Assembly (NCBI RefSeq): GCF_006345805.1
Contig: NC_043009.1
Location: forward strand, 25,730,001 to 25,794,000
Length of the DNA: 64,000 nt
Source of the DNA: Octopus sinensis
Lineage: Eukaryota
Direction of reading: 5' to 3'
A program made the translations under genes and the position numbers. Every line of letters begins with the position of its first letter. Positions within the stretch are counted from its first letter, which is position 1. The notes under the pieces are model-generated. The model was not told where the DNA came from and did not search any database. It saw only the letters and a program-made list of their open reading frames with translations. This document shows positions 1,802-57,597 of the stretch, in pieces.

Positions 1802-2020
1802 AACTACGTGTGAATTGTTGGCGGTTTTTTTTCTCCGTTTTCCTTTTCTTTTGGACTTTCCTCTGTCTCCTGTTTCTGAAGAAGAGCTTTGCTCGAAACG
1901 TAAAGCTACCTTTGTTTCCTTCCCTGAGCGTCTGTTAAAACTTTGTATGTACCACGTCCTCGCGTTGTTGTTTTTTCTTTTTGTGCTTTTCTTCATTTTT
2001 TTTTGGTTCTCTCTCTTTCT

Positions 2021-2060
<40 letters not shown>

Positions 2061-2281
2061 AGAGAGAGCGAGAGAGAAAGAAATTCCCCACCCCCAAATG
2101 AAGAAAAACAACAACGCGGGGACATGGTACATGCATGCAAGGTTTTAACAAACGTTCAGGGAAGGAAAGAAAGTTAATTTTACGTTTCGAGTAAAGCTCT
2201 TCTTCAGAAACAGGAGACAGAGGAAAATCCAATAGAAAAGGAAGACGGAGGGGAAAAATCGCCAACGATCCACGTGTAGTT
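1802..2281. mobile_element. Inverted pair of about 180-bp Penelope-like pseudo-LTRs around (TA)n
   Basis: 1802-1980 is an imperfect reverse complement of 2098-2281; each arm has a hammerhead-like core. Confidence 0.6.
1872..1906 (+). ncRNA. Minimal hammerhead-like motif in Penelope-like inverted terminus (second copy on - strand about 2177-2211)
   Basis: GUUU-CUGAAGA-A-GAGC(UUU)GCUC-GAAA-CG-UA-AAGC. Confidence 0.6.
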
Positions 2282-5418: not shown

Positions 5419-6777
5419 AATTTGTATTTCTTCTCATCTTTCCATTTGTTCTCTTGTTTTTAACAGCAGTTTTGCTAACAGTATTTGAACAGGGTCATTT
5501 GCTTGCTGTCCACCACAAAAGCATGTCCACACTTCTTGATATGCTCTTGATACGTTCCATGATCTTTGTTAAAAAAAAAGGCTCAGTTAGGTGGCGTTTC
5601 TTCCCAGTTCCCTGTGTAGTCATGTCCGGCTGTTTATTATTACTTCACTTGGAAACCAGTGGGGGTTGACATTTGGAAGAGTGTCCAGCTGCAGAAAACT
5701 GATCTAATGTTCTCTCATCTGACCTATGCAAGCATGGAAAAGTAGATGTGGTTGTGTGGTAAGAAGTTTGCTTCTCAACCACGTGGTCCTGGGTTCAGTT
5801 CCACCGTGTGGCACCTTGGACAAAGTGACTTCTACCATAGCCTAGGGTTGACCAAAACCTTGTGAGTGAATTTGGTAGATGGAAATTGAAAGAAGCTTGT
5901 CATATATACACACATATTTGTGTGTGTGCGTTTGACCTCCATGACGGCTTGTCAACTGGTGTTGGTTTGTTTATGTCCCTGTAAGTTAGCACTTTGGCAG
6001 AAGATACCGATAGAATAAGCGCCAGATTTTTAACAAAATAGTACTGTAGTCAATTCATTTGACTAAAATTCCCCAAGTCCAATGACTGATAAAAGATAAA
6101 AGATTAAAACAATTATTTTGGTGCTAGCTTAGTGTGTGGTCTGCCATAGAATCCATAGCCTATGCTGTGAAATTATCTGATCTGGGTTAGGATTAGGGTT
6201 AGACTGCAAGCTATAGTGTAAATGGCCAGGTAGACTTGCACACTAAAGTGGCTCTAATTATTTCTTTTCTGGTGTGGGTTGGATAGATTATAACAGTCTA
6301 TGTTATCTTACACTCCTAGGATCAGAGAAAACCACCCAATTTTGGTGTTATATATGTCTCCCTAGTGTAGACTGGGTGTTTTTTGGTGTACCACCAACAC
6401 TAGAGAAGTTCTCCTATGTGGGAGGAGTCCCACATAGTCCCTTCTACTCTGGAAAAAGTCCCTTCTGCTCTGTTTTACTTCTTATTCTTAGCTATTGCTC
6501 TCTGTGATGAATAACCTGTAATGCTTGTGGAGTTCAAGTCTAGCTCGTACGTTTATGTATATTGTGTTGAAGCTGTATATATTGAATATCGTTTCTCTTG
6601 ATCAGACATACATGTGTGTGTGTGTGTGTATGTGTGCACATGCGTATACACACACACACAATGTATACAGCAAAACATTGAAGCCACTTACTGTAGGTTG
6701 CCATGCAGTGGGACTGAACCCATAACCTTATGGCTAGGAAGCCAGCTTCTTACCACACAGCTATGCAGTTGTACGTG

Positions 6778-6994: not shown

Positions 6995-8185
6995 GTGTAT
7001 TGCTTTCACGCAGGAAATAGAAAACCAGTGATAAAGTAAAACTCCAACTTGCGAGAGATATGCGCACACGTACACACACATTAATTACCTGTCACTGATG
7101 TCACTCGTATATATATATGATTGTGTGTGTGATAAATAATTATTGTTTACGTTTATATTCATTGTACTGTTATCAAGATCAATTTTTAGGTCAATTATAT
7201 ATATATTTATACACTTGTCCACTCACCTTTATTTTAAATACATGTGTGTGTGTGGGTTTATTTTTGAGCACCATTATATGACTGCGTAATTCATTATGTT
7301 CTATTTATTTAACTATATTAGACAAATAGATGGGTTTTTTTTTCTATTTCATCTTAAATATTAATTATGTCACAAACGAATACTTGTATTTATTATGAAA
7401 CCAGGTTGCCTTCAATGGGTCTTTTATTCAGTTATTAATTTACTAATTTCACTAGTCGGATTGTGACCATACTGGAGCACCACCTGAAGGATTTCTCTAA
7501 TCAACAGCATTGACGTCGGTGATTATTTTAAGTTTGGTGTTTATTTTGTTGAGTTTTGTTTACTGGGATTGTCGCTTGTGAGACCTGCCTTGGATGTCTG
7601 TTCTGACTCACTGCACTTTGTCACATGAGTGTGTCTCCTTGTCTTGGCATTGCTTACTACAGGTGGTGGCGTGGCTTTGTGGTAAGAAGTTTGCTTCCTG
7701 ACCACATTGTTCTGGGTTCAGTCCACTGAGTGGCACCTTGGGCAAGTGTCTTCTACTATAGTCTCGGGCCGACCAAAGACTTGTGAGTAGATTTGATTGA
7801 TGGAAACTGAAAGAAGCCCATTGTATTTATCCATATATATATATATAGGGTGTGTGTGTCTTTCCATCTGTGTTTGTCCTCTTCCACTGCTTGACAATGG
7901 TGTTGGTGTCCTTATGTCCCCATAAAATAGGGATTTGGCCCCAAAAAAGAAAAAAACTCAGAATAAGTACCAGGCATTAAAGAAAAAGTCCTGGGGTTGA
8001 TTTGTTTGACTAAAATCCTTTAAGGATATCATAGATAATATCTTTCACTATTAATTGAATTACTTAATAGAGATTATTTCTCTTAATTATATACATATGT
8101 TATTTATTGTGAAATTTGATTTACTATTGCTAAATTGAATTTTTCCTTGTAAGTCTGAAATTTTATATTCCCTACTATTATTAAT

Positions 8186-8251
<66 letters not shown>

Positions 8252-25629: not shown

Positions 25630-25960
25630 AACTTTCATTATAATAGTGTAGAAACAATTTAAGTATTCATACACAAAAGAGGTGACCTTTAACAAGAAAC
25701 CTTAATGCTAGAAAGGGCAGTCAAAACCCAAACCACAAATAAAAGCAATTTTATTTGTGGTTTGGGTTTTGACTGCTCTTCCTAGCATGTAAGGTGTTCT
25801 GTCAAAGGTCACCTTTTTCGTATATAAATACTTAGATTGTTTGTAGACTATGAGAATGAAAATATGTTGACTATTGACTTTATTATGCATGCCAGCCACT
25901 GGCATGAAAATTTTTCTAAATTTTTTACCCTTATTATTTTCACAGTATATATATATATTA

Positions 25961-26325
25961 TGGAGGCGCAATGGCCCAGTGATTAGCACAGCGGACTCGT
26001 GGTCATAGGATCGCGGTTTCGATTCCCAGACCGGGCGTTGTGAGTGTTTATTGAGCGAAAACACCTAAAGCTCCACGCGGCTCCGGCAGGGGATGGTGGT
26101 GATCCCTGCTGTACTCTTTCACCACAACTTTCTCTCACTCTTACTTCCTGTTTCTGTTGTACCTGTATTTCAAAGGGCTGGCCTTGTCACTCTCTGTGTC
26201 ATGCTGAATATCCCCGAGAACTACGTTAAGGGTACACGTGTCTGTGGAGTGTTCAGCCACTTACACGTTAATTTCATGAGCAGGCTGTTCCGTTGATTCG
26301 GATCAACCAGAACCCTCGTTGTCGT
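25961..26325 (+). mobile_element. tRNA-derived SINE family D
   Basis: TGGAGGCGCAATGGCCCAGTG...GGTTTCGATTCCC head; related copies at 12410-12745, 26349-26645, 29387-29647, 51790-52040 (+) and 28176-28560, 30445-30740, 44085-44425, 47048-47356, 54440-54730 (-). Confidence 0.85.
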
Positions 26326-26748
26326 ATATTATATATATTATATATATGTGAAGGTGTATGGCTTAGTGGTCAGGGTGTCGCACTCACAGTTGCGAGATTG
26401 TGGATTTGATTCCCAGACCGTGCATTGTGTTCTTCAGTAAATTACATCATTTCACACTACTCTGCGATAATTTCGTTATCTGACGTGTGGCACCCAGTTG
26501 CACCTGTACAGGTAATGTCAATCTGATGGAGGGAGTGAGCTTATATGTACACAAACATTTGATCTCTATAAACAAATCATCTGTGTGGTTGTTCAGCAAA
26601 TAAGTGCCGAACCTTCATGCATCGTCTAACAACAGGAGAGTCCATGATGAAATATGTATGTATATATATATATAATAATATGAGGGAATATTATTCCAAA
26701 CTTACAGGGAAAAATTCAATTTAGAAATACTAAATCAAATTTCACAAA

Positions 26749-26787
<39 letters not shown>

Positions 26788-26912: not shown

Positions 26913-26947
<35 letters not shown>

Positions 26948-27121
26948 ATAAATATTAGGGAATAAATCCAAATTTACAGGGAAAAATCAGATTTAGGATT
27001 AAATCCAATTTTATAGTAAAATATTATATAATATAATTCGAGACAAAACCACTATTTTGCAAAACAAACAAGGAAAGACTTAATCAATACATAAAAAATT
27101 TTAATATAAAGAAATAAACCG

Positions 27122-27164
27122 CCACTACAATCGTTTCATGTCTTCAATGACATTCGTCAGGTGG
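27122..27164 (-). ncRNA. Minimal type I hammerhead ribozyme motif
   Basis: Minus strand CCAC-CUGACGA-AUGUC(AUUGAA)GACAU-GAAA-C(GAUU)G-UA-GUGG: full core, 4-bp stem I, 5-bp stem II, self-complementary stem III. Confidence 0.75.
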
Positions 27165-27491
27165 ATTTTCGATCTCCTAATCTGTTTTAATTTATATATA
27201 TAAGGGACAGGACCAAGTGGTTAAGGTGTTGCAGTTGTGATCACAAGAACATGGTTTCAATTCTTATGCTGCTAATGTCACTCCTGTCCATTTAGATAAA
27301 TGTGTAACCCTGCAACAGACCAGTGTCCCCTTTCGTGGGGGGGGGAGTCTGCCTGCCTGCTTAGCCCGTGAGATGGCATCATTCGAAAGCTACAACAATG
27401 CAAAGAAGCACATTGTGAGCAGCGATTTATAACATCTGATAATCTGACCGATACAGTGATTTAATGTTTATATGTTTATCTGTCTTTGTAG

Positions 27492-27852: not shown

Positions 27853-30734
27853 GTAAGTTGTCAAACATTGTCATCGTTTACCCGTAACAACCACCGTGAT
27901 AGCTTTTCATTGCATGTTGTCATGATTAATACTCTTTCTCATTATCGTTAGTTCTAGTAATCTTTTTTTTTAATATAACTTGGCAAAAGTCAGTGTAATT
28001 TTATTTTTAAAAAATCCATTTCATACTCTGATCTGACTGTTCCATTTTTCTTGAATTAATAAGATACATTAAAATGTTGTTTTGAAATGCACAAGATATT
28101 TTTTCATATGTTATAGAAAATGGATTGAGTAAACATTTTATATTGTATCATTTGGTGGAAGAATATATATATATATGGTGGCACTCCATCAGTTACGACG
28201 ACGAGGGTTCCAGTTGATCCGATCAATGGAACAGCCTGCTTTTGAAATTAACATGCAAGTTGCTGAGTACTCCTCAGACGCGTGTACCCTTAACGTAGTT
28301 CTCGGGGAGATTCAGCGTAACACAGAGTGTGACAAGGCTGGCCCTTTGAAATACAGGAACAGCAGAAGCAGAAAGAAAGAGTGAGAGAAAGCTGTGGTGA
28401 AAGAGTACAGCAGGGTTCACCACCACCCACTGCCAGAGCCTCATGGAGCTTTTGGTGTTTTCGCTCAATAAACATTCACAATGCCTGGTCTAGGAATCAA
28501 AACTGCGATCCTACAACCGTGAGTCTTTTGCCCTACCCACTGGGCCATTGCGCCTCCACAAATTATATATATAATTTCAGGAGTATATACAGAAAATAAT
28601 GAAGACAAATTTCATCTTTTTTCAGACACATCTGTATATTTCTGAGATTCCACTAATGTAAATAGAACAAGGGAAAGAAAGTGTATCTTTGAAGGGAGAA
28701 TTTTAGAACTTGATAAAGAGAACTGATGAGGGAGAGAAAAAGACAGTGTGGGAGAATGAAGAAAAGAGAAAGAAGACATAAGTCAAACTATGACTGGCCT
28801 TAAATCTCTTTTATTGTTCTTTTTCCATTTCTTTTTTGTTTTTGTTCTTATTTATTTGAAATTACATTTCAGAAAGCTTCTAGAATGTTTACCAAAGAAT
28901 AAAACAGCAGCCATTTTGTCTACAGATGACTATTTTAAAGATAATCGCAACAATTACTGTTTTTATGTTGAGCGATTATCAGATGCTCATGCCTGGAACC
29001 AGCAGAGAGGTAAATAAAAATATTTCCTCTAGTCTGTGTGTCTGTCTCTCTTTTTTCATTGTTGTATTCCTATTTATGTATGTCTGCCTGTTTATTTATC
29101 TCTCTCACTTGAACCCCCATCAAGCAGGTGTAAACTCCAGCAAGCCAAGTTTGTGAGTCTGTTTTGATTCTCAGTAAGAGAGATGTCTAACTCCATTTAT
29201 GTTACCGATTTACTTAACAAGAAACACCATCATTTCATCTGCTTGAAGATCATGAAAGGGCAAAAGAGCCTAGTCTATAACAGACCAGATTGTTGACCCC
29301 TTGTATGCATTTTAACCCTTTAGCATTGAAACCAGCCATATCCGACCCAGATATTCTACTTGTTTTATGTTGAAGCTATCCAGCTCAAGTGGAGGCGCAT
29401 GGCTTAGTGGTTAAGGTGGCAGCATCACGATCATAAGATTGCGGTTTCGATTCCTGGACTGGGCGACGCGTTGTGTTCTTGAGCAAATCACTTCATTTCA
29501 CGTTGCTCCAGTCTACCCAGCTGGCAAAAATGAGTAACGCTGCGATGGACTGGTTCCCATCCAGCTGGGGAACACATACGCCATTGAAGCCGGGAAACCG
29601 GGCCCATGAGCCTGGCTAGGCTTTAAAAGGGCGCATTTATTTTTATTTATCCAGCTCCGACCTCTCACACCTACCCTATTATGTACATTTAAAAGTAAGC
29701 AATCACCTCTTCAAAATCTCTAAAATACAAGGTAGTTCATGATTAATTTTTAAAAAGGGAATAAATAAGCATCAGATTTGACAGAGTAATGTGAATGCTG
29801 AAAGGTTAATGTATCTCTGTACGTTTTGTGACATTTTTTCCTAGTTCACTTCTCATCTGTAAATTGCTGGAACATTTTGAATGCATTAGGTAGATGATAG
29901 ATAGGTTGTCTGTCATCATTTGTTATGTGATTGTTTATTTGTTCACTTGGGGCTAGCTGTCATTATTCTCTTTCTCTCTCTAAATATCACCATCATCATC
30001 CTTTAATGTCCGCTTTCCATGGTGTCATGGGTTGGATGATTTGACTGAGAATTGGTGAACCAGATGGCTGCACCAGGCTCCAATCTGATCTGGCAGAGTT
30101 TCTACTGCTGGATGCCCTTCCTAACGCCAACCACTTCGAGAGTGTAGTGGGTGCTTTTATGTGCCATCTGCACGAGGGCCAGTCTGGCGGTACTGGCAAA
30201 GGCCACGCTCTAAATGGTGTTTTTTATGTGCCACCTGCACAGGAGTCAGTCCAGCAACACTGGCAACGACCTCACTCGAATGTTTTGTTCACATGCCACC
30301 CGCATAAGCGCCAGTAAGGTGACGCTGGTAACGATCACGCTCAAATGGTGGTTTTTACGTGTCCACCAGCACGTAAATATGTAGACAGAAACTGAAAGAA
30401 ACCTGTTGTATGTATGTATGTATGTGTGTGTGTGTATATATATATCACGTGATCATGTGACCGACCAGTCCATCAGATGTAGTTACACATCGCTCGTCAC
30501 AATGTGTTCGCATTGTTTTAGCCTTTGAATGACGCCACCCCGCTGGCTAAGCGAGCAGGCCAACAGAAGAAAGAGTGGTGAAAGAGTACAGCAGGGATCA
30601 CCACCCCCTGCCGGAGCCTCGTGGAGCTTTTAGGTGTTTTCGCTCAATAAACACTCACAATGCCCGGTCTGGGAATTGAAACTGCGATCCTACGACTGCA
30701 AGTCCGCTGCCCTAACCACTGGGCCATTGTGCTC

Positions 30735-30792
<58 letters not shown>

Positions 30793-33107
30793 CACACACA
30801 CACACACATACATACATACTTTTTTTTATATTAAAGCTGCAGAAACATCTCAAAAAACTGTTTCACATTTCCATTTGTCAGAATCCAGTCTTGATCAGAT
30901 TTGTCTGATGAACGGAAATGTGAAACTCTGAGTAACAATTTTTTGTGATGTTTTTGCAGCTTTAATAAAAAGCAAATCACTCTGCCTTTGGTATTCGAGT
31001 ACTATTTCTTTTCCTCACCTTGTATTGCATTTATATGCTTACTCATGCATGTATGTGTGTGTGTTTGTTTTTGATATCCTGTGGTATTTGTAACTGTTGT
31101 AAATGATTGTCACTATCATACAAAATGTGTCACTCATTTCCAATATTCTGCAAAATCATGTCTGGGTGCGGAGAAATTGGAAAGAGGTGTGGGCTGGTGA
31201 CAGGAAAGGTATTGCAGCTGTAGAAAATCTACCTCAAACTGTCTCGCCCATGCAAGTTTGGAAAAGTGGACTTTAAAATAATGATCACACACATAAAATT
31301 TATTGAATGCCTTTATTAACCAACTTGTCATCTTCTATTGAAAGAACTGAACAGCTGTATAGATGTAAACACAATTTTTTCTTCTTCCTTCTTTCTTTCC
31401 TTCTCTTTTCCATTGACATTCCTTTCAGATACACAGGCACACACACACAGACACACAAAACAAATGCACTCTCTCTCTCTCACTGGACAAAGGTGATGAT
31501 GATAATAAATCCAGACAACTTTTTGAAAAATAACTTTTAATCAAGACCCCCCCCCCCCTCACATTGAGTAGCCACCTGGTTTTGCCCTTTTTAAAGGCCA
31601 AGAATCAACTCATCACTTTCTATTGAAAGAACTGACCAGCTGTATAGATGTTTCTTCTTTCTCTCTTCCTTCTTTCTTTCTCTTTTCCATTGACACTTCT
31701 TTCAGATACACACACACACACACTCTCTCTCTCTCTCCCCATTCCTCACCCTCTTTTACTATCCTATATCTCTCTCCACCCCTACACACTCAATAATACT
31801 ATAAAAAGAGACAAATCCTCCCAAACAAATTCAAATCTGGAGATTCTACCAGAGTAGATGCAAGCGCTAATATATGATTTATAAAAACATGTGACATATT
31901 AAAAATCTGTAAATGTACAACCATCCAGATTTCTGAGTACCTAATTTTTTGTAATATATATATATATATATATAATATATATATATATATGCACACACTA
32001 TATATACACATGATATATATATATATATATATATACATGATGGAAAACTAGCTCAGTAAGGCAGGACGCTACTCCCTGAGAACCCTTTCAGAGCCCCCTA
32101 CCTACATACACAAAGGTGCTAAATTTTAGGGAAAAGAAGGAAGAAATATAACACTGTCCTTAACCGTTTAGCATTTAAACTGGCCAGATCCAGCCTCTCA
32201 CACTTACCTTACATTAAGAAATAATCATCAAAAAATAAACAATCATGTCTTTGAAATCTCACGGCTACATGGTAACACATGGCTAATTCAAATCAATTCT
32301 TTTTCTTGTTTTAGTCCTTTGACTGTGGCCATGCTAGAGCACTGCCTTTAGTTGAACAAATTGACCCCCAGGACATGTTCTTTGTAAGCCTAGTGCTTAT
32401 TCTATTGGTCTCTTTTGCTGAACCGCTAAGGTATGGGGATGTAAACACACCAACATCTGTTGTCAAGTGACGGTGGGGGACAAACACAAACACACACACA
32501 CACGCACATATATGATAGATTTCTTTTAGTTTCCATCTACTAAATCTACTCACAAGGCTGTGGTTGGCCTGAGGCTATAATAGAAGACACTTGCGCAAGG
32601 TACCCTGCAGTGGGACTGAATCTGGAACCATTTCGTTGGGAAGCAAGCTTCTTACCACACAGCCATGCCTGTGAATAAATAAACATTACATTTCACAGAA
32701 ATCTGTATGCCAAAGTGTTAATGCCATTCCCAGTGACATTAACATAACAAATAGAGAGAGAAAAATTCAAAACTATAAACTAAAAACAGACTGCCCTTTT
32801 GGTTTCTAAAATACTCATTTCTTGTTCTGTGAACTCTTCAATTTATCTTCTTGATGCCTTGCTGATATTAATGATGTGTTTCTAATCCCTGGACTTTTCA
32901 ACAGCCCTAAATGCAATGAAAGAGGGAACAGATTTGGTTATTATCGACAACACAAATTTGACCTTATGGGAAATGGAACCCTATGCTAATTATGTGAGTA
33001 TAAATATAATTAGTGCTAATTTTTTTGATGTTTTTTTCTTTTTCTTTGTGAATGTTAAATTGGGTGACCACATGTTGCTGTTAGTTCTCTTTCTCTTTGT
33101 ATGTATG

Positions 33108-35072: not shown

Positions 35073-38000
35073 GTTTCCACTTTGCAGGGTGGTTGGTGTT
35101 AGGAAAGATATCCAGCTGTAAAAGTTATGCTAAAACAAACACTGAAGCATGGAAAGCAGACGTTAAACGATGATGATGAAGAAGATGTGTGTGTGTGTGT
35201 GTGTATAAACTTCGTCTATTTATGATGAGGCACATGGTTTTTCTTGAACATTGTTATGGGACAAAAACAGTGACCCAAATGGTAAAATGTTATCAATTAA
35301 TTTATAATTCTTTCAAATTGTCAGGCAAAAGAAAATGGTTATTTTCTTGAAATTGTGGAGCCTAACACAGCATGGAAATTCAAAGCCCGAAAACTAGCTG
35401 CGTAAGTATTTAGAATTATTACATTCAACTTCCCTTTTTCAATATTTGTTTACTATTGTATGTAGAATATTGCTGACAGTTAATTTTCAAGCTGCTGGGA
35501 TTGATGAAATAATTAGCGTTAAAACCTGACTAATTCTTTTGATGCCAAGCCACCTGAGACTGCTTTTGGTCCTATTTACTCTTTACTCTTTTACTTGTTT
35601 CAGTCATTTGACTGTGGCCTTGCTGGAGCACTGCCTTTAGTCAACCAAATCAACCCCAGGATTTATTCTTTGTAAGCCTAGTACTTATTCTATCTGTCAT
35701 TTTTGGCGAACTGCTAAGTTACAGGAATGTAAACACACCAGCACCTGTTGTCTGTTGTCAAGAGGTGTTGGGGGGACAAACACAGACACACACACACATA
35801 TATATATATACACACATATATACAACGGGCTTCTTTCAGTTTCCGTCTACCAAATCCACTCACAAGGCTTTGGTCGGTCCGAGGCTATAGTAGAAGACAC
35901 TTGCCCAAGGTGCCACACTGTGGGACTAAACCCAGAGCCATGTGGTTCGTTAGCAAGCTACTCACCACACAGCCACTCCTATACCTCTTATATAAGCTTC
36001 CTGTCTAAAGTGATCTTAATTAAAACCTTCCACAAAAATTTCATGTTAATTTATGTTCCAAACACCATTTTAATAACAACTATTTTTTGTTTTTAGTAAA
36101 TTTGTCATTTTCAAAATAAATTGAAACAAAAGGGGTTAAAGTAATCGAAATTAAAATCTTCCATCAAGATTTTGTATCACTTTATGTACCAAACACCAGC
36201 TTAATAATGACCATTATTGTTTAAAATTTCTGAATGAAGTGAGAAACATCTGTTGCAATAGAATGGCCATCTGTATCATGTAGATGGCTTAAAGTTGCCA
36301 TAACGATTGTCAGGTTGTAATGAAAGTGCTTTTTAATAGTTGAGCAGATATTGTTAAACAAGATTTAATATAGCTATATCTCTATTTTGATGCTTAATCA
36401 CATCCACATAAGTCAGCCACTACTTTTACTAACATTATATAAAAACATTATACATGGACACCGCTCCAGGCTGATCATTTATCATCTAACAAAAGACACA
36501 TTTAGCATATTATGCTTTGAGTTTCATAGAAAGGTCAAAGCAGGTGCAGTAACTATATTGTGGCTATCATTTTTTACCTATAAACCCCATTAACCCTTCT
36601 GTTACCAACCTGGCTGAAACCGGCCTTCGCTCTGAGTACAAATGTCTTGTCTTCATAAATTTTGAATTAAAATCTTCCGCCAAACCTTAGTCACAATTTA
36701 TGTTCCTAACACTAGCTGAATGATAACTAAGTTATTTTACTAAATTCTTTGTTATATTTAAAGTACGTGAAAGAAACACAGAGCATCTCAAAATAAATAC
36801 AGTAACACAGTAACAAAAGAGTTAAAAATATATAATAGAGAAACAATTCTTAACCCTTTTAATACCATCCTGGCTGAAGCCGTCTCTGGTTCTGTAGTAC
36901 AAATGTCTTGTTTTCATAAATTTTGAATTAATATCTCCCACCAAACCTTAGTCACAATTTATGTTCCTAACACTAGCTGAATGATAACTAAGTTATTTTA
37001 CTTATTTCTTTGTTGTATTTAAAATTAATTGAAAGAAATGGCATCTCAAAATAAATACAGTAACGAAAGGGTTAACTTGTATAGGTTGAACTATGCAAAA
37101 TGTATGAGAAAGAAATCTAGCTGTGTTTTGTAATAAATACTTCTAAAGCAACATTTTTTCATGGTTCCTTAATATACTATTGTGGGTCCCTAATTTTTTA
37201 TTTTGCTTGCATGGACCCCTAAAAATCTTATATGGATCACAAATGGTCATATGGTACCGGGTTATGAACCACTTACCCAGAGCACTTGTGTGGTTGATGC
37301 AGCTTGTAGGAGATGGGTTCTTTTTTGCCTGTTTCAGAAATGGGAATGGTTTCAGTGAAGCATATGCTAAGAAAGGGTCACTTAAGGCAGCGAGCTGGCA
37401 GAAACATTAGCATGCCGGGCAAAATGCTTAGCGGTATTTCGTCTGCCATTACGTTCTGAGTTCAAATTCCGCCGAGGTCGACTTTGCCTTTCATCCTTTT
37501 GGGGTCGATAAATAAAGTACCAGTTACGCACTGGGGTTGATGTAATTGACTTAATCCGTTTGTGTGTCCTTGTTTGTCCCCTCTATGTTTAGCCCCTAGT
37601 GGGCAATAAAGAAATAAGAAAGGGTCACTTGAGTGGACGTGGCACAGAGGCACTGGAAGCAGGTTTTTTCAGAAAATTTTCCCATTGCAGTTAGTTTTTA
37701 GCCATCATGCAAATAGTGTCCTTCATTTCCAGTCTTCTGTGAGAACATGTTCAGTCATGGAGAAATATTAGCTTAACTGGAAACAGATGAGGGTTAGCAA
37801 CAGGAAGGGCATCCAGCTGTAGAAAATTCACCTCAAAAAATTCTGTCTCACTTATGCAAGCATAGAAAAGTGAATGATAAGTGACTGTGATGATGATGAC
37901 ATAACTTGATTGTTTTTTTTTTTTAAAGTTTTTTAATTAAATTTTTGTTTTTTGTTTTAATTTTGTTCCTGTTTGTTTTGGTTTATTGTTCAGTCGAAAC

Positions 38001-48272: not shown

Positions 48273-49652
48273 TAAGGAGTTGAAGATGGTGAGCTAGCAG
48301 CATCATTAGCACACCAGACAAAATGTTTGGTGGCATTTCATCTGGCTGTATGTTCCGAGTTCAAATTTCACTGATGTCAACTTTGCCTTCCATCATTTTG
48401 GGATTGATAAAGTATTAGTTGAGCATTGGGGTTGACGTAATCAAATAGCATCCTCTCCTAAAAGTTCAGACCTAAAGCCTATAGTAGAAAGAATTATTGG
48501 CTCTTGTGCAGGTGGCACATAAAAAGCACCATTTGAGCATGGTCGATGTCAGTACTGCCTGACTGGCCCTTGTGCCGGTTGCACGTTAAAGCACACACTA
48601 CACTCTCAGAGTGGTTGGCATTAGGAAGGGCATCCACCTGTAGAAACTTTGTCCAGATTGAACTGGAGCTTGGTGCAGCCTTCTGGCTCACCAGCCCTCA
48701 GTCAAACCATCCAACCCATGCCAGCATGGAAAGTGGACATTAAACAACAATGATGATGATGATGATGATTATCGTTATTCTTATTATGAAGGCGGTGAGC
48801 TGGCAGAAATGATAGCACACTGGACGAAATGCTTAGTGGTATTTCATGTGCTGTTATGTTCTGAGTTCAAATTACACCAAGGTCGACTTTGCCTTTCATC
48901 CTTTCAGGGTCGATAAAACAAGTACCAGTTATGCACTGGGGTCGGTGTTATTGACTTAATCCCTTCCCCCAAATTTGAGGCCTTGTGCTTCCAGTTGAAA
49001 GGATCATTATTATTAAGGCGGTGAGGTGGCTGAATCGTTAGCACACTGGATGAAATGCTTAGCGGTATTTCACTCATTGCTATGTTCTGAGTTCAAATTC
49101 CATCATGGTTGACTTTGCCTTTCATCCTTTTGAGGTCGATTAAATAAGTACCAGTTATGCATTGGGGTTGATGTAATCAATTGAAATAATAATTATTATT
49201 GTTATGAGGGTGACAAGCTGGCAGAATCGTTAGCATGGTAGATGAAATGCTTAACGATATTTCATCCATCGCTATGTTCTGTGTTCAAGTTCTGCCATGG
49301 TCAACTTTGTCTTTCATCCTTTTGGGGTCAATAAATTAAGTACCAGTTGAATACTGGGGTTGATGTAATTGACTCATCCCCTCTGCCAAAATTGTTGTCC
49401 TTGTGGCAAAATTTGAAACCTTTATTATTATTATTATTAAGGTGGTGGGCTGGCAGATTTGTTAGCATGGTGGACAAAATGCTTAGCAATATTTCACCCG
49501 TTGCTATGTTCTGAGTTCAAAACTCACCGAGGTCAACTTTGCTTTACATCCTTTCAGGGTTGATAAATTAAGTACCCGTGAAACACTGGGGTTGATGTAA
49601 TTGACTAGTCCCCTCCCCACAAATTTCAAGCCTTATGTCTAAAGTAGAAAGG

Positions 49653-49685
<33 letters not shown>

Positions 49686-51246: not shown

Positions 51247-54200
51247 CATACATACACACACACACACACATATATATGTGCACACACAACACAGCTCTCC
51301 ATCAGGGATCATCATCCTGTCTTCTCTATATTTATATAAGAACTGTTTTGCCTAAGATGTCCCTTTTTAAATTAAGGTGTGATGTGTTACAATAAGGCTG
51401 CTATATCTAGCAGATCATTGATCACATAAAGAATTCCCCTCCCTCCCACACCAGCCCTTAAAGTATGTGATGTCAGATTATCTCCTGCACTGCAATATAA
51501 TATAATTTACATGTGGCCTACATTTCATATCCTTTTAGGCTAGCATGTATAAAAAGGAGCTGTTGAAAGCAGAGTTAGGATTGTTGAAGCAAGAAGTTGC
51601 AGATCAGTAAGTAAATTGCTGTTATTTGCTGTTGTTGTTAGTTTCTTTTTAATCATCATTTGCATCTACTTTTTCGTGCTGACAAATGGATCTGATGGCA
51701 ACTCAACACTTGTCATAATCTTTGCCATTTGGCACACACAAAACCACAGAAAACTGCCCGGCTTTATTCCCGTGTATATTGTATATTGCGTGAAGGTGCA
51801 TGGCCTAGTGGTTTGGGTGCTACACTTGTGACTGTGAGATCGTGGTTTCAATTCTTACACCAGGTGGTGCTTCGTGTTCTTCTGCAAAACACTTCATCTC
51901 ATGTTGATCTGCGATCTCTTCAACACCTGACATGTGGTACACCATGCACCTGTTCAGACAATGTTGATTTGATGGAGGTTAGAGTACTAATGTGCAACAC
52001 AAACATTTGGTCATTATAAACAAATCATCTGTTCAGGTTCATCACCATCATCGTTTATCGTCCGCTTTCCATGCTAGCATGGGTTGGACAGTTTGACTGA
52101 TGACTGGCAAGGTTTCTACAGCTGGATGCCTTTCCTAACGCGAACCACTCCGAGAGTGCAGTGAGTACTTTTTACATGCCACTAGCATGGGAGCCAGTCA
52201 GGGGGCACTGGCACCGACCACGTTTGGATGGTGCTTTTTACGTGCCACCGGCACAGGAGCCTGTCAGTTCAAGAAATTGCAGAACTGTCATTCTCAGACT
52301 CAAGGGACTACCTTTAAATAGTGTATATTGTGGACTGACTGATGGTGGCTACAGAATATCAAGGGCAAAGTAGTATTTCTGATTTTGGTCCCTGCACTGT
52401 ATTACTGCCAGGTGGGCTGGCAGCAGTGATGACATTCAACAAAATGAATGCTTGGCAACCAACTGCAGTTGATGGTACTTCATACATCATTGCAGATTCA
52501 TCTGTGCCATGGAATTAGGCTAGGATCAGGTCTCTCCAATCCTATCTGCCAGTTTTAATGGATCTGTCTATGGTATTGTTCCACCAACATCTCATCTTAG
52601 TTGGAACTTTGCACCTTAAGTTGTTGTGCTTCAGAGGCCACTGTCATTTCCTGCAGTCCTGTAGGTAATACCTGTTGACTTAAATTCTTATCTGAGAGTC
52701 CAGGAAGATGAATCTCAGGAAGATGAACTGAAAGCAATTAAAAGAAGCAGGACAATTTCTCTGATCAAGAAAAGCCAAGATGATGATAGTTTGAACTAGG
52801 TGTATTTTACTGTGTCACCAATACTTGTAAGATTGTCTGTGGATGGACTACGGTGTCCTCTTTTCTTTGTATGAGATCTTGGAGTTAATCCTCGTCTGGT
52901 CAGCTGTGACATCACTTACCGAGACCATCTCTATTGGCCCTCCATTGTATCAATTCTGTTGTAGTTGACTTTGCCATTCATGTCTTTTAGGGTCATTAAA
53001 ATAAGTATCAGTTAAACACTGATGTTGATATAATCGACTTCTCCTTCCCCCCAAAATTGCTGGCCTTGTGCCAAAATTTGAAATCGGTCTTCCAGCTGAT
53101 AATCTGATAATGGCTTTAACCACTACTCTAGCTCACTTCCTACCATGCCCCGAGTCAGAAATTGTCATTCCATCACAGTTTATTTATTATAATATTTTGG
53201 TTCCTTTTTATCTGTCCACAGGTTGACTCCTGAATATTACAATGTTGTGGATTTACATGGAATGAAGATCCATGAAGCTGTTAGCATCACAAAACAATGT
53301 TTACAGGATTATAAAAGAGGTAATACAGTGTTCTTGGCTTTTTTTGTTTCGTTTTTATTATTGTTGTTGCTACTAAGGTGGCAAGCTGGCAGGATCGTCA
53401 GCAGACCGAGCGAAATGCTTAGTGGCAGAAACGTTAGCAGGCCAGGCGAAATGCTTAGCAGTATTTCGTCTGCCGCTACGTTCTGAGTTCAAATTCTGCC
53501 GAGGTTGACTTTGCCTTTCATCCTTTTGGGGTCAATAAAAAAAGTACCAGTTTCGCACTGGGGTCGATATAATTGACTTAATCTGTTTGTCTGTCCTTGT
53601 TTGTCCTCTCTGTGTTTAGCCTCTTGTGGGTTGTAAAGAAATAGGTATTTCACCCTTGATATATTCTGAGTACAAATTCCTCCAAGGTAAACTTTACTTT
53701 TCATACTTTCGGGGTTGATAAAATAAGTATCAGTTGCGTACTGGGGATTTATGTAATTAACTTCCTTCCTCCCCCAAATTTCAGGCCTTGTGCCCATAAC
53801 AGAAGGGATTATTATTGTTGCTATAGATGCTGTCAATGTTGCTATAGATGCTGTCAACACTTGCCTGTTTAGATGTATATGCTATGATACTACTGCCCTC
53901 ATTTGCATATTCTTATCATGATGTGGGTTTGTAAGGGGCATCACATCTTAGAACAGGCACAGGCATGGCTGTGTGGTTAAGAGGTTTGCTTTGTAACCAT
54001 GTGTTTTGGAGTTCAGTTCCATTGCATGGCACCTCAGAAAAGTGTCTTTTGCAGTGGCCATGGGTTGAACACTATCTTGCAAATAAATTTGGTGGACCAG
54101 ACCTGTACAAACCCTTGTGTGTGTGTGTGTGTGTGTGTGTGTATGCTTACATTCTGAGTTATGTGAAAAATAAAACAAAACCTCACTGAGTTATAGTGTG

Positions 54201-57200: not shown

Positions 57201-57597
57201 TCACTATTTGGTTGTGGCCATACTACTTAGAAATGCTACTTTGAATTTCAGTTTCCAAATGTCATATATATATTTGCTAAACATGGATAAGGCAACGAGC
57301 TGGCAGAAACGTTAGCGCGCCGGGCGAAATTCTTAGCAGTCTTTCGTCTGTCGTTACGTTCTGAGTTCAAATTCCGCCGAGGTCGAATTTGCTTTTCATC
57401 CTTTTGGGGGTCGATAAATAAAGTACCAGTTTCGCACTGGGGTCGATGTAATCGACTTGATCCCTTTGTCTGTCCTTGTTTGTCTCCTCTATGTTTAGCC
57501 CCTTGTGGGCAGTAAAGAAATATATTTGCTAAACATGGATTTCTTTTTCTTCTGCAGGTTCATCGAGGACGATGGTTCCATCAAAGTATTTTTCTGA
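27492..57597 (+). CDS. N4BP2: NEDD4-binding protein 2-like (N4BP2/NONU-1 family): PAM2 + P-loop polynucleotide kinase + CUE-like + Smr; 15 coding exons, 5' end incomplete
   Basis: Manual splice reconstruction: 27492-27852, 28873-29009, 32905-32993, 35325-35401, 37994-38101, 39398-40173, 40755-40850, 42801-42970, 46031-46134, 46890-46998, 49736-49909, 51539-51606, 53222-53319, 56415-56541, 57558-57597. All are GT-AG and phase-compatible, with no internal stop and TGA at 57595-57597. Motifs: LMRGCPGSGKSTLA, LSTDDYF, AHAWNQQRA, VIIDNTN, EPNTAWKF, RNTHGV, VDLHG, IITGKG. Confidence 0.9.
28873..29009 (+). CDS. N4BP2: N4BP2-like exon (kinase domain)
   Basis: tttcag acceptor; KLLECLPKNKTAAILSTDDYFKD...LSDAHAWNQQR; donor gtaaat. 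Confidence 0.92.
29314..29808. mobile_element. piggyBac-type MITE (TTAACCCTTTAGCATT...AATGCTGAAAGGTTAA) carrying a SINE D with 10-bp TSD
   Basis: TSD TATCCAGCTC at 29377-29386 and 29648-29657; other copies at 13529-13740, 15312-15830, 32161-32721, 39137-39362, 43834-44056. Confidence 0.75.
30901..30938 (+). ncRNA. Minimal type I hammerhead ribozyme motif (sense, intronic)
   Basis: UUGU-CUGAUGA-ACG(GAAA)UGU-GAAA-CUC(U)GAG-UA-ACAA: full core, stems I, II and III. Confidence 0.72.
32905..32993 (+). CDS. N4BP2: N4BP2-like exon (kinase domain)
   Basis: caacag acceptor; LNAMKEGTDLVIIDNTNLTLWEMEPYANY; donor gtgagt. Confidence 0.92.
33425..34790 (-). mobile_element. Rearranged RTE-clade LINE fragment (late RT region with PHD-type finger, 3' UTR, (GAT)n tail)
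   Basis: Minus strand WPCSICRKGIGRNSIRCTQCKLWTHKRC...FVCGRC...EVVDSLRYLGD; ends in GACGTTAAACGATGATGAT. Confidence 0.8.
34964..35033. repeat. Perfect 70-bp palindrome
   Basis: ACACACATAAATATAAGAGGGAATTTTTTACCACT|AGTGGTAAAAAATTCCCTCTTATATTTATGTGTGT. Confidence 0.95.
35325..35401 (+). CDS. N4BP2: N4BP2-like exon (kinase domain)
   Basis: ttgtcag acceptor; AKENGYFLEIVEPNTAWKFKARKLA; donor gtaagt. Confidence 0.92.
36590..37076. mobile_element. Two tandem ~230-bp piggyBac MITEs
   Basis: TTAACCCTT...AGTAACGAAAGGGTTAA; 36590-36825 and 36850-37076 are near-identical; another copy at 43168-43396. Confidence 0.8.
37994..38101 (+). CDS. N4BP2: N4BP2-like exon (end of kinase domain)
   Basis: gttcag acceptor after T-rich tract; RNTHGVGYEKIVDMLKKYEEV; donor gtaagt. 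Confidence 0.92.
39398..40173 (+). CDS. N4BP2: N4BP2-like large exon (basic stretch then Ser/Asp/Glu-rich linker)
   Basis: Inside the 280-aa ORF; tctttag acceptor, gttagt donor; KRNYKRNRKRHR (possible NLS); ends LLAQLFGPL. Confidence 0.88.
40755..40850 (+). CDS. N4BP2: N4BP2-like exon
   Basis: aaacag acceptor; PDKEGFINTKLSLEHLSSLHK; donor gtaaga; phase 1-1. Confidence 0.8.
41099..41452 (-). mobile_element. Helentron-associated non-autonomous element (HINE/DINE-1-like)
   Basis: Minus strand TTATTACCTCCGCTTTAGTGGAGG hairpin, GTTT/GTCT microsatellite, 3' palindrome CACTCTCTGAGTG, ends CTTGTT. Confidence 0.6.
41450..42672 (-). repeat. Head-to-tail array of degenerate SINE B copies separated by (AAT)n
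   Basis: About 6 units of ~200 bp, each with GGATGAAAGGCAAAGTYGAC...GAATTTGAAC. Confidence 0.85.
42801..42970 (+). CDS. N4BP2: N4BP2-like exon
   Basis: tctcag acceptor; AKNRRSDN...SLSQIMREQQ...ELK; donor gtttgt; phase 1-0. Confidence 0.8.
46031..46134 (+). CDS. N4BP2: N4BP2-like exon (CUE-like domain start)
   Basis: ttttcag acceptor; KLRKLCSEFPGYDPNIIEIIFQEN (CUE FP motif); donor gtgagt. Confidence 0.85.
46890..46998 (+). CDS. N4BP2: N4BP2-like exon (CUE-like domain end)
   Basis: Polypyrimidine tract + ccag; YNYTTTLAFL; donor gtaagt; phase 2-0. Confidence 0.83.
47930..49690 (+). repeat. Head-to-tail array of SINE B copies separated by (ATT)n, with one RTE 3' fragment inserted
   Basis: About 7 units; RTE tail at 48498-48770. 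Confidence 0.85.
49736..49909 (+). CDS. N4BP2: N4BP2-like exon
   Basis: tttcag acceptor; 58 open codons NTPKIYSRN...AKEYNQSQ; donor gtaaga. Confidence 0.75.
50570..51200 (+). mobile_element. Tc1/mariner superfamily (maT/DD37D-like) transposase pseudogene with right end
   Basis: VFGVITSDGDVMPPFIFP, VWQQDSIPCH, WPPNSP-LDYYVW, FRSRLEAVVEANGDFIE*; ends CATCCTG-TA. Confidence 0.8.
51539..51606 (+). CDS. N4BP2: N4BP2-like exon (helical region before Smr)
   Basis: cttttag acceptor; ASMYKKELLKAELGLLKQEVAD; donor gtaagt; phase 0-2. Confidence 0.75.
53222..53319 (+). CDS. N4BP2: N4BP2-like exon (Smr domain, DLHG)
   Basis: ccacag acceptor; VVDLHGMKIHEAV; donor gtaata. Confidence 0.9.
56415..56541 (+). 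CDS. N4BP2: N4BP2-like exon (Smr domain, ITGxG)
   Basis: tttcag acceptor (alternative in-frame AG at 56419-56420); LTIITGKGLNNVAGRSVLKPPI; donor gtaagt. Confidence 0.9.
57558..57597 (+). CDS. N4BP2: N4BP2-like terminal coding exon
   Basis: ttctgcag acceptor; FIEDDGSIKVFF-stop, matching the usual G-x-hydrophobic-x-V end of Smr domains. Confidence 0.85.

What the first reader, a model, noticed from the sequence alone, without database searches (positions are those of the whole stretch)
26943..27200. Full-consensus minimal hammerhead on the minus strand in a (TA)n-inserted element
Seen: the reverse complement of 27122-27164 is CCAC CUGACGA AUGUC-AUUGAA-GACAU GAAA CGAUUG UA GUGG. Stems I and II are perfect and stem III (ACGAUUGU) is self-complementary with G-U pairs, as expected for dimeric activation. 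The ~250-bp host lies between TA microsatellites, and its end recurs at 26672-26750 and inverted at 8105-8185. Its stems differ entirely from the 30901 and 1872 motifs while the core is kept. Inference: at least three distinct ribozyme-bearing, microsatellite-associated Penelope/retrozyme-like families occur in this 64 kb.
Basis: partly seen in the sequence, partly recalled or inferred. Interest (0 to 1): 0.75.

Follow-up and report, generated by a model that had tools for sequence, protein, structure and literature searches.

The report
Hammerhead ribozyme in spliced Penelope retrocopy
A complete hammerhead-ribozyme motif sits in a 250-base non-coding copy of the intron-less end-piece of a Penelope-like jumping gene lodged in a TA repeat; the ribozyme is predicted to cut only when two copies pair, and such elements are already known from many animals, so the find is ordinary though well resolved.

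Summary
Minus strand 27164-27122 reads as a complete minimal type-I hammerhead, and chance does not explain it. A strict descriptor hits it once in the window, and 1 of 300 shuffles gives any hit. The motif's pattern occurs 3994 times in the 2.72-Gb genome, against 0 for the reversed control.

The ~250-nt host (26945-27195, minus strand) lies between TA tracts. Its sequence equals the intron-less form of the terminal region of a divergent Penelope-like element (PLE). Ten genomic copies carry the same 5' leader followed by GTATGT, a ~1.2-kb intron and ...TTTTAG, then the same ribozyme. 199 copies carry the spliced junction. Other copies are physically joined to an RT plus GIY-YIG-like ORF.

PLE hallmarks are present: (TA)n targets, head-to-head inverted 5'-truncated partners, a tandem junction and intron retention. 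RNAcofold predicts a double hammerhead. Helix II covaries among 22 subfamilies.

Self-cleavage in vivo is untested. The 10.1-11.1 pair is A-U rather than G-C, and ribozyme-less sister families also amplified.

This is a new member of a known kind (PLE minimal hammerheads, Cervera & De la Pena 2014).

The parts
27193..27202 (.). (TA)5 remnant of the target microsatellite on the element's 5' side
   Evidence: Read. The 6 of 30 genomic copies without an inverted partner also abut TA tracts at their 5' end.
27174..27195 (-). Leader that equals exon 1 of the master element (..ATAAATTAAAACAGATTAGGAG). It lacks about 4-5 nt of the full CTTCAT.. start.
   Evidence: Ten genomic copies carry the same leader followed by GTATGT. 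The full leader is seen.
27165..27173 (-). First bases of exon 2 (AUCGAAAAU). The exon-exon junction lies between 27174 and 27173. These bases can extend helix I by pairing with CGGUUU.
   Evidence: L171 has ..TTGATATTTTAG|ATCGAAAATCCAC. The junction 23-mer occurs 107+92 times in the genome, control 0.
27122..27164 (-). Minimal type-I hammerhead. Helix I is 27161-27164 with 27122-27125. CUGACGA is 27154-27160. Helix II with its loop is 27138-27153. GAAA is 27134-27137. Helix III with its loop is 27127-27134. The predicted cut is 3' of A17 (27126).
27094..27121 (-). AT-rich spacer that varies between subfamilies
   Evidence: Alignment of 20 subfamily representatives.
27040..27093 (-). Highly conserved block (TATGTATTGA..AATAGTGGTTTTGTCTC) shared by all subfamilies
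   Evidence: Its 17-mer occurs 8925+8918 times in the genome, control 1+1.
27020..27039 (-). UA-rich patch. It is the 3' end of 'short-form' copies and of the inverted partner copies.
26945..27019 (-). 'Module B' tail, ending in (TTA)n. In a tandem PLE copy the same sequence directly precedes the 5' UTR and ATG of the next unit.
   Evidence: L195. Its 28-mer occurs 2485+2544 times, control 0. Searches also bear on it.
26913..26944 (.). (TA)n target microsatellite on the element's 3' side
   Evidence: All 30 genomic copies end in (TA)n.
26661..26764 (-). Diverged, 5'-truncated 3' end (UA patch plus module B) of a related copy, next to a second (TA)n
   Evidence: 77% identity to element positions 166-270.
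8066..8196 (+). Diverged block end plus module B of a related copy, in inverted orientation, ending in (TA)n
   Evidence: 74% identity to element positions 145-268; sequence read.
1872..1906 (+). Min-HHR of a second family. Its partner at 2211-2177 (-) lies tail-to-tail across the (TA)n at about 2025-2060.
30901..30938 (+). Min-HHR of a third, older family, inside a foldback arrangement

Best explanation
Minus strand 27164-27122 is a complete minimal type-I hammerhead motif inside a ~250-nt non-coding element whose sequence equals the intron-less form of the terminal (pseudo-LTR) region of a divergent Penelope-like retroelement inserted in a (TA)n microsatellite; the ribozyme is predicted to cleave only as a dimer and would likely process the element's longer RNAs.

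Shown by sequence:
- The motif and its genome-wide family.
- Intron-containing copies with GT..AG boundaries, and intron-less copies with the exact exon-exon junction 13 nt upstream of helix I.
- Colinearity, in other copies, of ORF, 3' UTR, exon 1, intron, ribozyme, conserved block and UA-rich patch.
- A tandem junction in which 'module B' runs on into the next unit's 5' UTR and ATG.
- TA-microsatellite targets and head-to-head inverted 5'-truncated partner copies.

Inferred:
- Transcription starts at CTTCAT.. in the terminal region. A TATA-like TTTAAAG at about -31 and an initiator-like TTCA|CTTC are read from the sequence only.
- The RNA is spliced and then copied by the PLE's RT/EN into nicked (TA)n. 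Priming would be on one of two UA-rich patches, which gives the short and long 3' ends.
- In a more-than-unit-length transcript, the two ribozyme copies pair through the self-complementary ACGAU(U/C)GU. [quoted passage not shown]

The window copy lacks the upstream promoter region and any ORF. It is therefore most likely a dead-on-arrival retrocopy that keeps an intact ribozyme by descent, made from an RNA that had not been cleaved.
For: Motif and chance. The genome holds 3994 pattern matches against 0 for the control.

Family anatomy. 24 of 30 loci carry an adjacent inverted partial copy, and 30 of 30 end in (TA)n.

Splicing: the leader followed by GTATGT occurs in 10 copies. L171 shows exon 1, a 1196-nt intron ending TTTTAG, then the identical ribozyme-to-tail sequence. 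The spliced junction occurs in 199 copies. The same relation holds in the TTGTC subfamily, with CTTCATAATTTGAAACTGACTT|GTAAGTATG. By my reading it holds in two further leader types.

Link to the ORF: L194 has the ORF ending at 4014, exon 1 with GTAAGT at 5678, the ribozyme at 7532 and (TA)n at 7669. L195 has ribozyme, block, module B, ATG and ORF in that order.

The ORF is PLE-like. It has 22 homologues at 33-39% identity, some with precomputed PF26215 or PF00078. The profile of 18 sequences against a canonical 781-aa RT/GIY-YIG PLE ORF of the same genome gives hhalign probability 96.1%, E 3.5e-9, over 588 columns that include RT motifs A, B and C. The nearest Atlas clusters carry HTH_animal, GIY-YIG, DUF8422 and RVT_1.

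Ribozyme structure: on 22 subfamily representatives, 85.6% of cells pair, against 76.5% in shuffles (0 of 500 reach it) and 17.5-53.7% when slid. All 8 helix II pairs change on both sides.

Unbiased sample: 57 block instances contain 16 complete ribozyme regions, and all 16 keep both core boxes.

Dimer: RNAcofold gives -22.0 kcal/mol against 2 x -8.4 for monomers. The structure is a double hammerhead, with an 8-bp intermolecular helix III and a swapped helix I. The monomeric hammerhead fold is only -3.7.

Literature, sections and passages read: min-HHRs in PLE pseudo-LTRs, dual motifs about 100-700 bp apart on opposite strands, and the intron end at helix I in D. virilis (PMC4209133); inverted 5'-truncated copies, tails and (TA)n targets (PMC8557442).
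Against: - No Rfam hammerhead model matches, even at E<=10.
- The monomer fold is no more stable than shuffles (z -0.60).
- The 10.1-11.1 pair is A-U here, and U-A or a mismatch in sister subfamilies. Only 13 of 3994 copies have G or C at 10.1. There is no unpaired base after A9. Both points differ from the features Cervera & De la Pena list for PLE min-HHRs.
- Those authors found low in-vitro activity for metazoan min-HHRs.
- 39 of 57 sampled copies have no ribozyme, being 5'-truncated or from ribozyme-less sister families. Ribozyme-less Naiad PLEs also thrive (PMC8557442). The ribozyme is therefore not needed for amplification.
- The retrocopies keep about 70 nt upstream of the cut site, so they descend from uncleaved RNA.
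- The covariation set was gathered with a pattern that fixes the core, helix III and the GUG strand of helix I. Only helix II and one helix I pair were free to vary.
- GIY-YIG is not detected by Pfam in the ORF itself. It is found in 2 of 18 homologues. The motif in the ORF is my own reading.
Confidence: 0.75

Rival explanations
1. The motif descends from a hammerhead but no longer self-cleaves in vivo. It persists because the copies are young, or because the stretch serves another purpose, such as a structure near the splice acceptor or a signal for the reverse transcriptase.
For: A-U instead of G-C at 10.1-11.1, and mismatches there in several abundant subfamilies. Helix I has only 4 bp. Metazoan min-HHRs showed low in-vitro activity (PMC4209133). 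Ribozyme-less sister families amplify. Copies of this subfamily are 97-100% identical, so their conservation says little.
Against: Both core boxes are kept in 16 of 16 complete ribozyme regions of an unbiased sample, while the helix III CpG decayed in 7 of them. Helix II varies from 16 to 46 nt yet keeps pairing, with changes on both sides at all 8 pairs. The helix III palindrome is kept.
Confidence: 0.17
2. It is an animal 'non-LTR retrozyme'. The short RNA would self-cleave, be ligated into a ~250-nt circle, and be copied by rolling-circle reverse transcription.
For: It is non-autonomous, AT-rich, 170-400 nt long, carries a type-I hammerhead and coexists with PLEs, as described for retrozymes (PMC7229834, passages; 2026 preprint 10.64898/2026.07.22.740005, abstract and section 14).
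Against: Among the first 100 ribozyme sites there is 1 same-strand neighbour pair (406 nt apart). By contrast there are 18 head-to-head pairs 77-139 nt apart. The one 'tandem' is a duplicated inverted/direct composite (L077). Copies share a fixed 5' end that equals a spliced leader, not permuted ends. No joints were seen in contigs of 4 runs (weak, because contigs drop rare forms).
Confidence: 0.05
3. It is a SINE moved by a microsatellite-specific LINE (for example an R4/Dong-type element, recalled), and the link to PLEs is coincidental.
For: The tail is a variable (TTA)n followed by (TA)n. Copies are short, 5'-truncated and non-coding.
Against: The same ribozyme, block and tail sequence is colinear with a PLE-type ORF in L194 and L195. 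It is also colinear in the C2 and C27 loci, which share 1.9 kb from the ORF towards exon 1. Complete duplicated inverted partner copies, intron retention and the tandem junction are PLE hallmarks (PMC8557442).
Confidence: 0.02
4. It is a chance match to the hammerhead consensus in AT-rich DNA.
For: The loose core pattern is only modestly enriched: 10 hits against 3.57 +/- 2.17 expected. No Rfam family matches.
Against: 1 of 300 shuffles gives any strict hit. The genome holds 3994 matches against 0 for the control. Covariation is seen, and the context is a PLE.
Confidence: 0.01

Closest known systems
Minimal hammerheads (min-HHR) in the pseudo-LTRs of metazoan Penelope-like elements (Cervera & De la Pena 2014, PMC4209133; parts 1-2 of the text read)
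   Same: Type-I topology, a short helix I (4-5 bp), and a short palindromic helix III that implies dimers. Thousands of mostly solitary copies fall into consensus families with compensatory changes. Dual motifs lie about 100 bp apart on opposite strands. The motif sits in the PLE terminal repeat.
   Different: No unpaired base between A9 and 10.1. The 10.1-11.1 pair is A-U, U-A or a mismatch instead of the 'highly conserved G10.1-C11.1'. Helix II ranges from 5 bp to long interrupted stems.
Drosophila virilis Penelope: intron in the terminal repeat ending at the 5' end of helix I (as described in PMC4209133; Arkhipova et al. 2003 recalled, not read)
   Same: A spliceosomal-type intron (GT..AG) ends 12-14 nt before helix I. 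Both intron-containing and intron-less genomic copies exist.
   Different: The intron here is 1.2-1.8 kb and holds internal tandem repeats. Intron-less short copies outnumber intron-containing ones 199 to 10 in this subfamily.
Animal non-LTR retrozymes (Cervera & De la Pena 2020, PMC7229834, passages; Li, Clavereau & Pollet 2026 preprint, abstract and section 14)
   Same: Short AT-rich non-coding elements with type-I hammerheads that derive from, or relate to, PLE pseudo-LTRs.
   Different: Not arranged as head-to-tail tandem repeats. No circular RNA evidence is available. The 5' end is fixed by a spliced leader.
PLE insertion architecture (Craig et al. 2021, PMC8557442, section 6 and passages)
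   Same: An inverted 5'-truncated copy abuts the 5' end. An extension ('tail') is present at one end only. (TA)n is the preferred target, 5' truncation is frequent, and partial tandems occur.
   Different: The tail here is about 75 nt rather than 30-40 bp. It can be identified as the first bases of the next unit. The PLE clade was not determined.

Membership tests
Hammerhead ribozyme, type I | Conserved core CUGANGA ... GAAA with a non-G base at the cleavage site (H17) | tested here: met
   CUGACGA, GAAA, U16.1 and A17 are read.
Hammerhead ribozyme, type I | Three helices around the core, with the open ends in helix I | tested here: met
   Helix I 4 bp, helix II 5 bp, helix III 2 bp with a GAUU loop.
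Hammerhead ribozyme, type I | Helices supported by compensatory change among relatives | tested here: met
   all 8 helix II pairs change on both sides; covariation score 0.193 against 0.093, with 0 of 500 shuffles reaching it. Caveat: helices I and III were fixed by the search pattern.
Hammerhead ribozyme, type I | Match to a curated Rfam hammerhead model | tested here: not met
   No match at gathering scores or at E<=10.
Hammerhead ribozyme, type I | Site-specific self-cleavage | not testable with these tools
   Only a fold prediction is available: the dimer at -22.0 kcal/mol adopts the double hammerhead.
PLE min-HHR (Cervera & De la Pena 2014) | Palindromic 15.2-16.2 and loop 3 (dimeric helix III) | tested here: met
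   ACGAUUGU here and ACGAUCGU in most subfamilies.
PLE min-HHR (Cervera & De la Pena 2014) | Highly conserved G10.1-C11.1 pair | tested here: not met
   A-U here. Only 13 of 3994 copies have G or C at 10.1. Variants are listed.
PLE min-HHR (Cervera & De la Pena 2014) | [quoted passage not shown] | tested here: not met
   Helix II starts directly after A9. The 1872 family in the same window does have this unpaired base.
Penelope-like element (family level) | Single ORF with a PLE-type reverse transcriptase and a GIY-YIG endonuclease | tested here: inconclusive
   The RT part is met: hhalign 96.1% against a canonical PLE ORF, and PF00078 / PF26215 on homologues. GIY-YIG rests on my reading of VVYK..VYIGST and on 2 of 18 homologues. 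Pfam finds nothing in the ORF itself. The window copy has no ORF.
Penelope-like element (family level) | Partial tandems forming pseudo-LTRs, with an inverted 5'-truncated copy at the 5' end | tested here: met
   Tandem junction in L195. Inverted partner in 24 of 30 loci, in L194 and in L141.
Penelope-like element (family level) | Retained spliceosomal intron | tested here: met
   GT..AG intron-containing copies and intron-less copies both exist. Splicing of the RNA itself is inferred.
Animal non-LTR retrozyme | Head-to-tail tandem repeats of a ~170-400-nt monomer | tested here: not met
   1 same-strand neighbour pair among the first 100 ribozyme sites, and it is a composite.
Animal non-LTR retrozyme | Expression as linear and circular RNA | not testable with these tools
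   No run is on record as RNA. The contigs show no joints.

The most novel reading that the evidence does not exclude
The ~250-nt hammerhead elements are retrocopies of a promoter-proximal, spliced pseudo-LTR transcript of an active PLE. This would be a direct snapshot of how PLE terminal repeats give birth to retrozyme-type non-coding ribozyme elements. The short RNA would still be made today, and part of it would be cleaved in trans-dimers and circularised.
Probability: 0.3. Interest if true: 0.55.

Novelty: new member of a known kind. Interest (0 to 1): 0.35.

Why it matters
It turns an isolated motif into a resolved element. The anatomy covers promoter-proximal leader, splice junction, ribozyme, conserved block, two alternative UA-rich 3' ends, the TA-microsatellite target and the coding master.

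It gives sequence-level support, in an invertebrate, for the recent proposal that short ribozyme-bearing repeats of animals derive from PLE terminal repeats. It adds one concrete route: retro-copying of a spliced terminal transcript.

It also has a practical side. The conserved block 17-mer alone occurs 17,843 times in this genome. The master ORF gave at least 19,491 first-look candidates yet is invisible to Pfam. Such PLEs and their fragments are therefore likely to be under-annotated or filed as unclassified repeats. The nearest named homologues are from octopods.

A recent octopus repeat annotation that I searched by term (PMC13282606) has no occurrence of 'hammerhead' or 'ribozyme'. Only 3 papers in the library hold 'hammerhead', 'retrozymes' and 'octopus' together.

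Tried and rejected
- Rfam gave no match on the window or on the locus.
- Sequencing runs: no RNA holder is listed. Contigs of runs X1, X2, X4 and X10 cover the element only in pieces, without joints. This is not informative on expression or circles. The second read-laying run was not used, because the spliced form also exists as DNA.
- First hunt for the coding partner, through Pfam GIY-YIG. The 30 best loci and three 9-kb stretches belong to a different, canonical 781-aa PLE. Its 3' UTR does not hold this element.
- Long relatives L134-L141 are non-coding; their largest ORF is 217 aa. They turned out to be intron-containing copies.
- Search for other carriers of module B: three sites without an exact block nearby were all the same superfamily.
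- Pfam on the master ORF found 0 families. BLASTP against the canonical PLE was not significant. Only the profile comparison worked.
- Earlier findings of this scan held nothing for this genome or this sequence.
- The PLE clade (Neptune, Poseidon and so on) was not determined.
- No structure was predicted.

Full report
**1. The observation**

The minus strand of 27122-27164 reads CCAC CTGACGA ATGTC ATTGAA GACAT GAAA CGATTG TA GTGG. This is the type-I hammerhead order: helix I 5' strand, CUGANGA, helix II, GAAA, a short helix III (A15.1-U16.1 and C-G closing GAUU), U16.1, A17, then the helix I 3' strand.

A strict descriptor of my own finds this site alone in the 64 kb. Only 1 of 300 dinucleotide-preserving shuffles gives any hit. 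A min-HHR descriptor that allows one unpaired base after A9 finds four sites: 1872-1906 (+), 2211-2177 (-), 30901-30938 (+) and this one. The 300 shuffles average 0.023 hits, with a maximum of 1.

Against this, no Rfam family matches, either at gathering scores or at E<=10 on the locus. The monomer fold is also no more stable than shuffles (z -0.60).

**2. The host is a young, abundant repeat lodged in TA microsatellites**

A 251-nt query gave at least 1062 first-look candidates in the 2.72-Gb genome. The 40 scored full-length matches are 97-100% identical.

In the 30 loci fetched, every copy ends ..CCCTAATATTTATTA(TTA)n(TA)n. 24 of 30 carry a head-to-head inverted partial copy directly at the 5' end. 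The other 6, the window's among them, abut TA tracts there. The inverted partner has a variable junction-side end (positions 6 to 105 of the query). Its outer end is constant and merges into (TA)n at an internal UA-rich patch.

**3. The superfamily**

The pattern CTGANGA-N10-45-GAAACGATYGTAGTG occurs 1988+2006 times, and its reversed control 0+0 times. Aligning 20 subfamily representatives gives this anatomy:
- a variable leader;
- the ribozyme, with a helix II region of 16-46 nt;
- an AT-rich spacer;
- a ~55-75-nt highly conserved block;
- a UA-rich patch, where 'short' copies end;
- in 'long' copies such as the window's, a further ~75-nt module B before (TA)n.

The block 17-mer occurs 8925+8918 times (control 1+1). 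A module B 28-mer occurs 2485+2544 times (control 0).

I took an unbiased sample of the first 57 block instances on contig 1 (my reading of the rows):
- 8 have a ribozyme matching the strict pattern.
- 8 have a complete ribozyme with changes outside the two core boxes. In 6 of these the helix III CpG reads CA, and in 1 it reads CC.
- 2 are truncated inside the ribozyme.
- 39 have none, being 5'-truncated or from ribozyme-less sister families.

Among the first 100 ribozyme sites, 36 lie in 18 head-to-head pairs 77-139 nt apart. Six -/+ pairs lie 704-3662 nt apart. Only one same-strand pair exists, 406 nt apart, and it is a duplicated inverted/direct composite (L077).

**4. The element equals a spliced transcript**

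The window's leader ..AAATTAAAACAGATTAGGAG is joined to ATCGAAAATCCAC-CUGACGA. Ten genomic copies have the same leader followed by GTATGTATTTT (pattern 5+5, control 0).

In L171 this is followed by a 1196-nt stretch ending ..TATTGATATTTTAG. After that comes ATCGAAAATCCAC, then the same ribozyme (letter for letter), the block and the module B tail, with a few differences in the spacer, UA patch and tail.

The junction 23-mer of the intron-less form occurs 107+92 times (control 0).

The same relation holds in the commonest subfamily. Long copies have CTTCATAATTTGAAACTGACTT|GTAAGTATG and ..TTGATTTTTAG|ATTGGAAGTCCAC. Short copies have ..GAAACTGACTTATTGGAAGTCCAC. By my reading it also holds in two further leader types.

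Intron-containing copies extend upstream of CTTCAT. They share a TTTAAAG..TATAA stretch about 20-31 nt upstream and the sequence TTCA|CTTC. I read these as a TATA-like box and an initiator. This is inference.

**5. The coding master**

Following intron-containing copies upstream led to an AT-rich ORF. Its C-terminal 240 aa give at least 19,491 first-look candidates in the genome, with open frames up to 859 aa.

One locus, L194 read in reverse, holds the following in order:
- an inverted intron fragment;
- the ORF, ending at 4014;
- exon 1 with GTAAGT, at 5678;
- the ribozyme, at 7532;
- (TA)n, at 7669.

L195 shows the tandem junction: intron end, ribozyme, block, UA patch, module B, about 50 nt, ATG, ORF. 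Module B is therefore the beginning of the next unit. The two alternative 3' ends of the short copies are two UA-rich patches.

Evidence on the ORF:
- Pfam finds nothing in it.
- BLASTP against the genome's canonical 781-aa RT/GIY-YIG PLE is not significant.
- 22 database homologues at 33-39% identity carry precomputed PF26215 or PF00078. The only named ones are octopod proteins.
- The 18-sequence profile aligns with the canonical PLE ORF over 588 columns at 96.1% probability, E 3.5e-9, including RT motifs A, B and C.
- Nearest Atlas clusters carry HTH_animal, GIY-YIG, DUF8422 and RVT_1.
- GIY-YIG in the ORF itself rests on my reading (..VVYKC..AVYIGST..) and on 2 of 18 homologues.

**6. Is the ribozyme a ribozyme?**

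For:
- On 22 subfamily representatives, 85.6% of cells pair. Shuffles average 76.5% (0 of 500 reach the observed value), and slid controls give 17.5-53.7%.
- All 8 helix II pairs show changes on both sides (variants). Helices I and III were fixed by the pattern that gathered the set, so they carry no weight.
- RNAcofold gives the dimer -22.0 kcal/mol against 2 x -8.4 for monomers. The dimer is a double hammerhead, with an 8-bp intermolecular helix III and a swapped helix I. The monomeric hammerhead fold scores only -3.7.

Against:
- The 10.1-11.1 pair is A-U, and U-A or a mismatch elsewhere. Only 13 of 3994 copies have G or C at 10.1.
- There is no unpaired base after A9.
- The published min-HHRs cleaved poorly in vitro (PMC4209133).
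- Ribozyme-less relatives amplify.
- The retrocopies keep about 70 nt upstream of the cut site, so their templates had not been cleaved.

**7. Mechanism proposed (inferred)**

Transcription would start in the terminal region. The RNA is spliced. Full-length, more-than-unit RNAs hold two ribozymes, which can pair and release unit-length RNA. This is the role Cervera & De la Pena proposed.

Short terminal transcripts hold one ribozyme and mostly stay uncut. The PLE's own RT/EN would copy them into nicked (TA)n, primed on either UA-rich patch. A second, inverted cDNA often forms at the other nick.

The window copy lacks the promoter region and any ORF. It is most likely inert.

**8. Comparison and novelty**

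Every element of this picture has a published precedent:
- min-HHRs in PLE terminal repeats, opposite-strand pairs and the intron ending at helix I (PMC4209133);
- inverted partners, tails and (TA)n targets (PMC8557442);
- derivation of short ribozyme repeats from PLE pseudo-LTRs (2026 preprint).

Particular to this case:
- the explicit relation between spliced and unspliced copies, 199 to 10;
- the identification of the tail as the next unit's start;
- the A-U 10.1-11.1 pair;
- a very abundant PLE ORF that Pfam cannot see.

Two earlier notes of this scan from other genomes describe similar PLE-end hammerheads and TA-inserted PLE-type repeats. I took them as leads only.

**Verdict:** a real feature, and a new member of a known kind.

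Noticed in passing
window 1872-1906 (+) and 2177-2211 (-): Two copies of a second min-HHR family lie tail-to-tail across the (TA)n at about 2025-2060. They have an unpaired A after A9, GAGC/GCUC with G10.1-C11.1, and an ACGU palindrome instead of a helix III loop. The family gives at least 4452 first-look candidates at 82-91% identity.
   Followed up: partly
window 30901-30938 (+), within a foldback at 30815-30975: A third, older min-HHR family (at least 2538 candidates, full-length matches about 75-87% identical). Helix II covaries among copies (ACG/CGT, ATG/CAT, ACA/TGT). The window copy has a C-G to U-A change in helix I relative to the other copies.
   Followed up: partly
L194:4988-7564 (-) and L195 (own genome, contigs 6 and 11): A very abundant AT-rich, N/K-rich PLE-type ORF (at least 19,491 first-look candidates). 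Pfam does not recognise it, and BLASTP does not link it to the genome's canonical PLE. Only a profile comparison shows the RT homology. Its PLE clade is undetermined.
   Followed up: partly
L171:1440-1520 and L169-L178 (own genome): Intron-containing copies share a TTTAAAG..TATAA stretch and TTCA|CTTC just upstream of the point where short copies begin. This looks like a TATA box plus initiator, that is, an internal pol II promoter in the terminal region.
   Followed up: no
L098, L100, L109, L115, L123 (own genome, contig 1): Sister subfamilies share the conserved block and the TA-microsatellite insertion but have a ribozyme-less ~110-nt 5' part (AAAATTTATAAGTTTAAATTATTTAA..).
   Followed up: no
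L136, L061, L171 (own genome): The introns hold GT-rich internal tandem repeats of about 300-830 nt. Sequence upstream of exon 1 resembles intron sequence (82% over about 360 nt), so the terminal region is itself internally duplicated.
   Followed up: no
window 25904-26297 and 28222-28615: 394-nt inverted repeat arms, 83% complementary, bracket the 1.9 kb that contains the finding. They are probably two copies of another interspersed repeat.
   Followed up: no
window 37396-37616, 48801-49671, 53423-53643, 57302-57522 and others: Several SINE-like repeat families fill much of the window, for example ..GAGTTCAAATTCCGCCGAGGTCGACTTTGCCTTTCATCC.. and ..GGCATCCAGCTGTAGAAAC...
   Followed up: no
L034:2614-2685 (+) and L082:494-548 (-): Other PLE loci of the genome carry hammerhead motifs with different palindromic helix III sequences (CTCGAG, CAGCTG). 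The L034 motif lies about 850 nt downstream of a GIY-YIG match; the L082 motif lies about 3.5 kb downstream of the PLE ORF's end.
   Followed up: no
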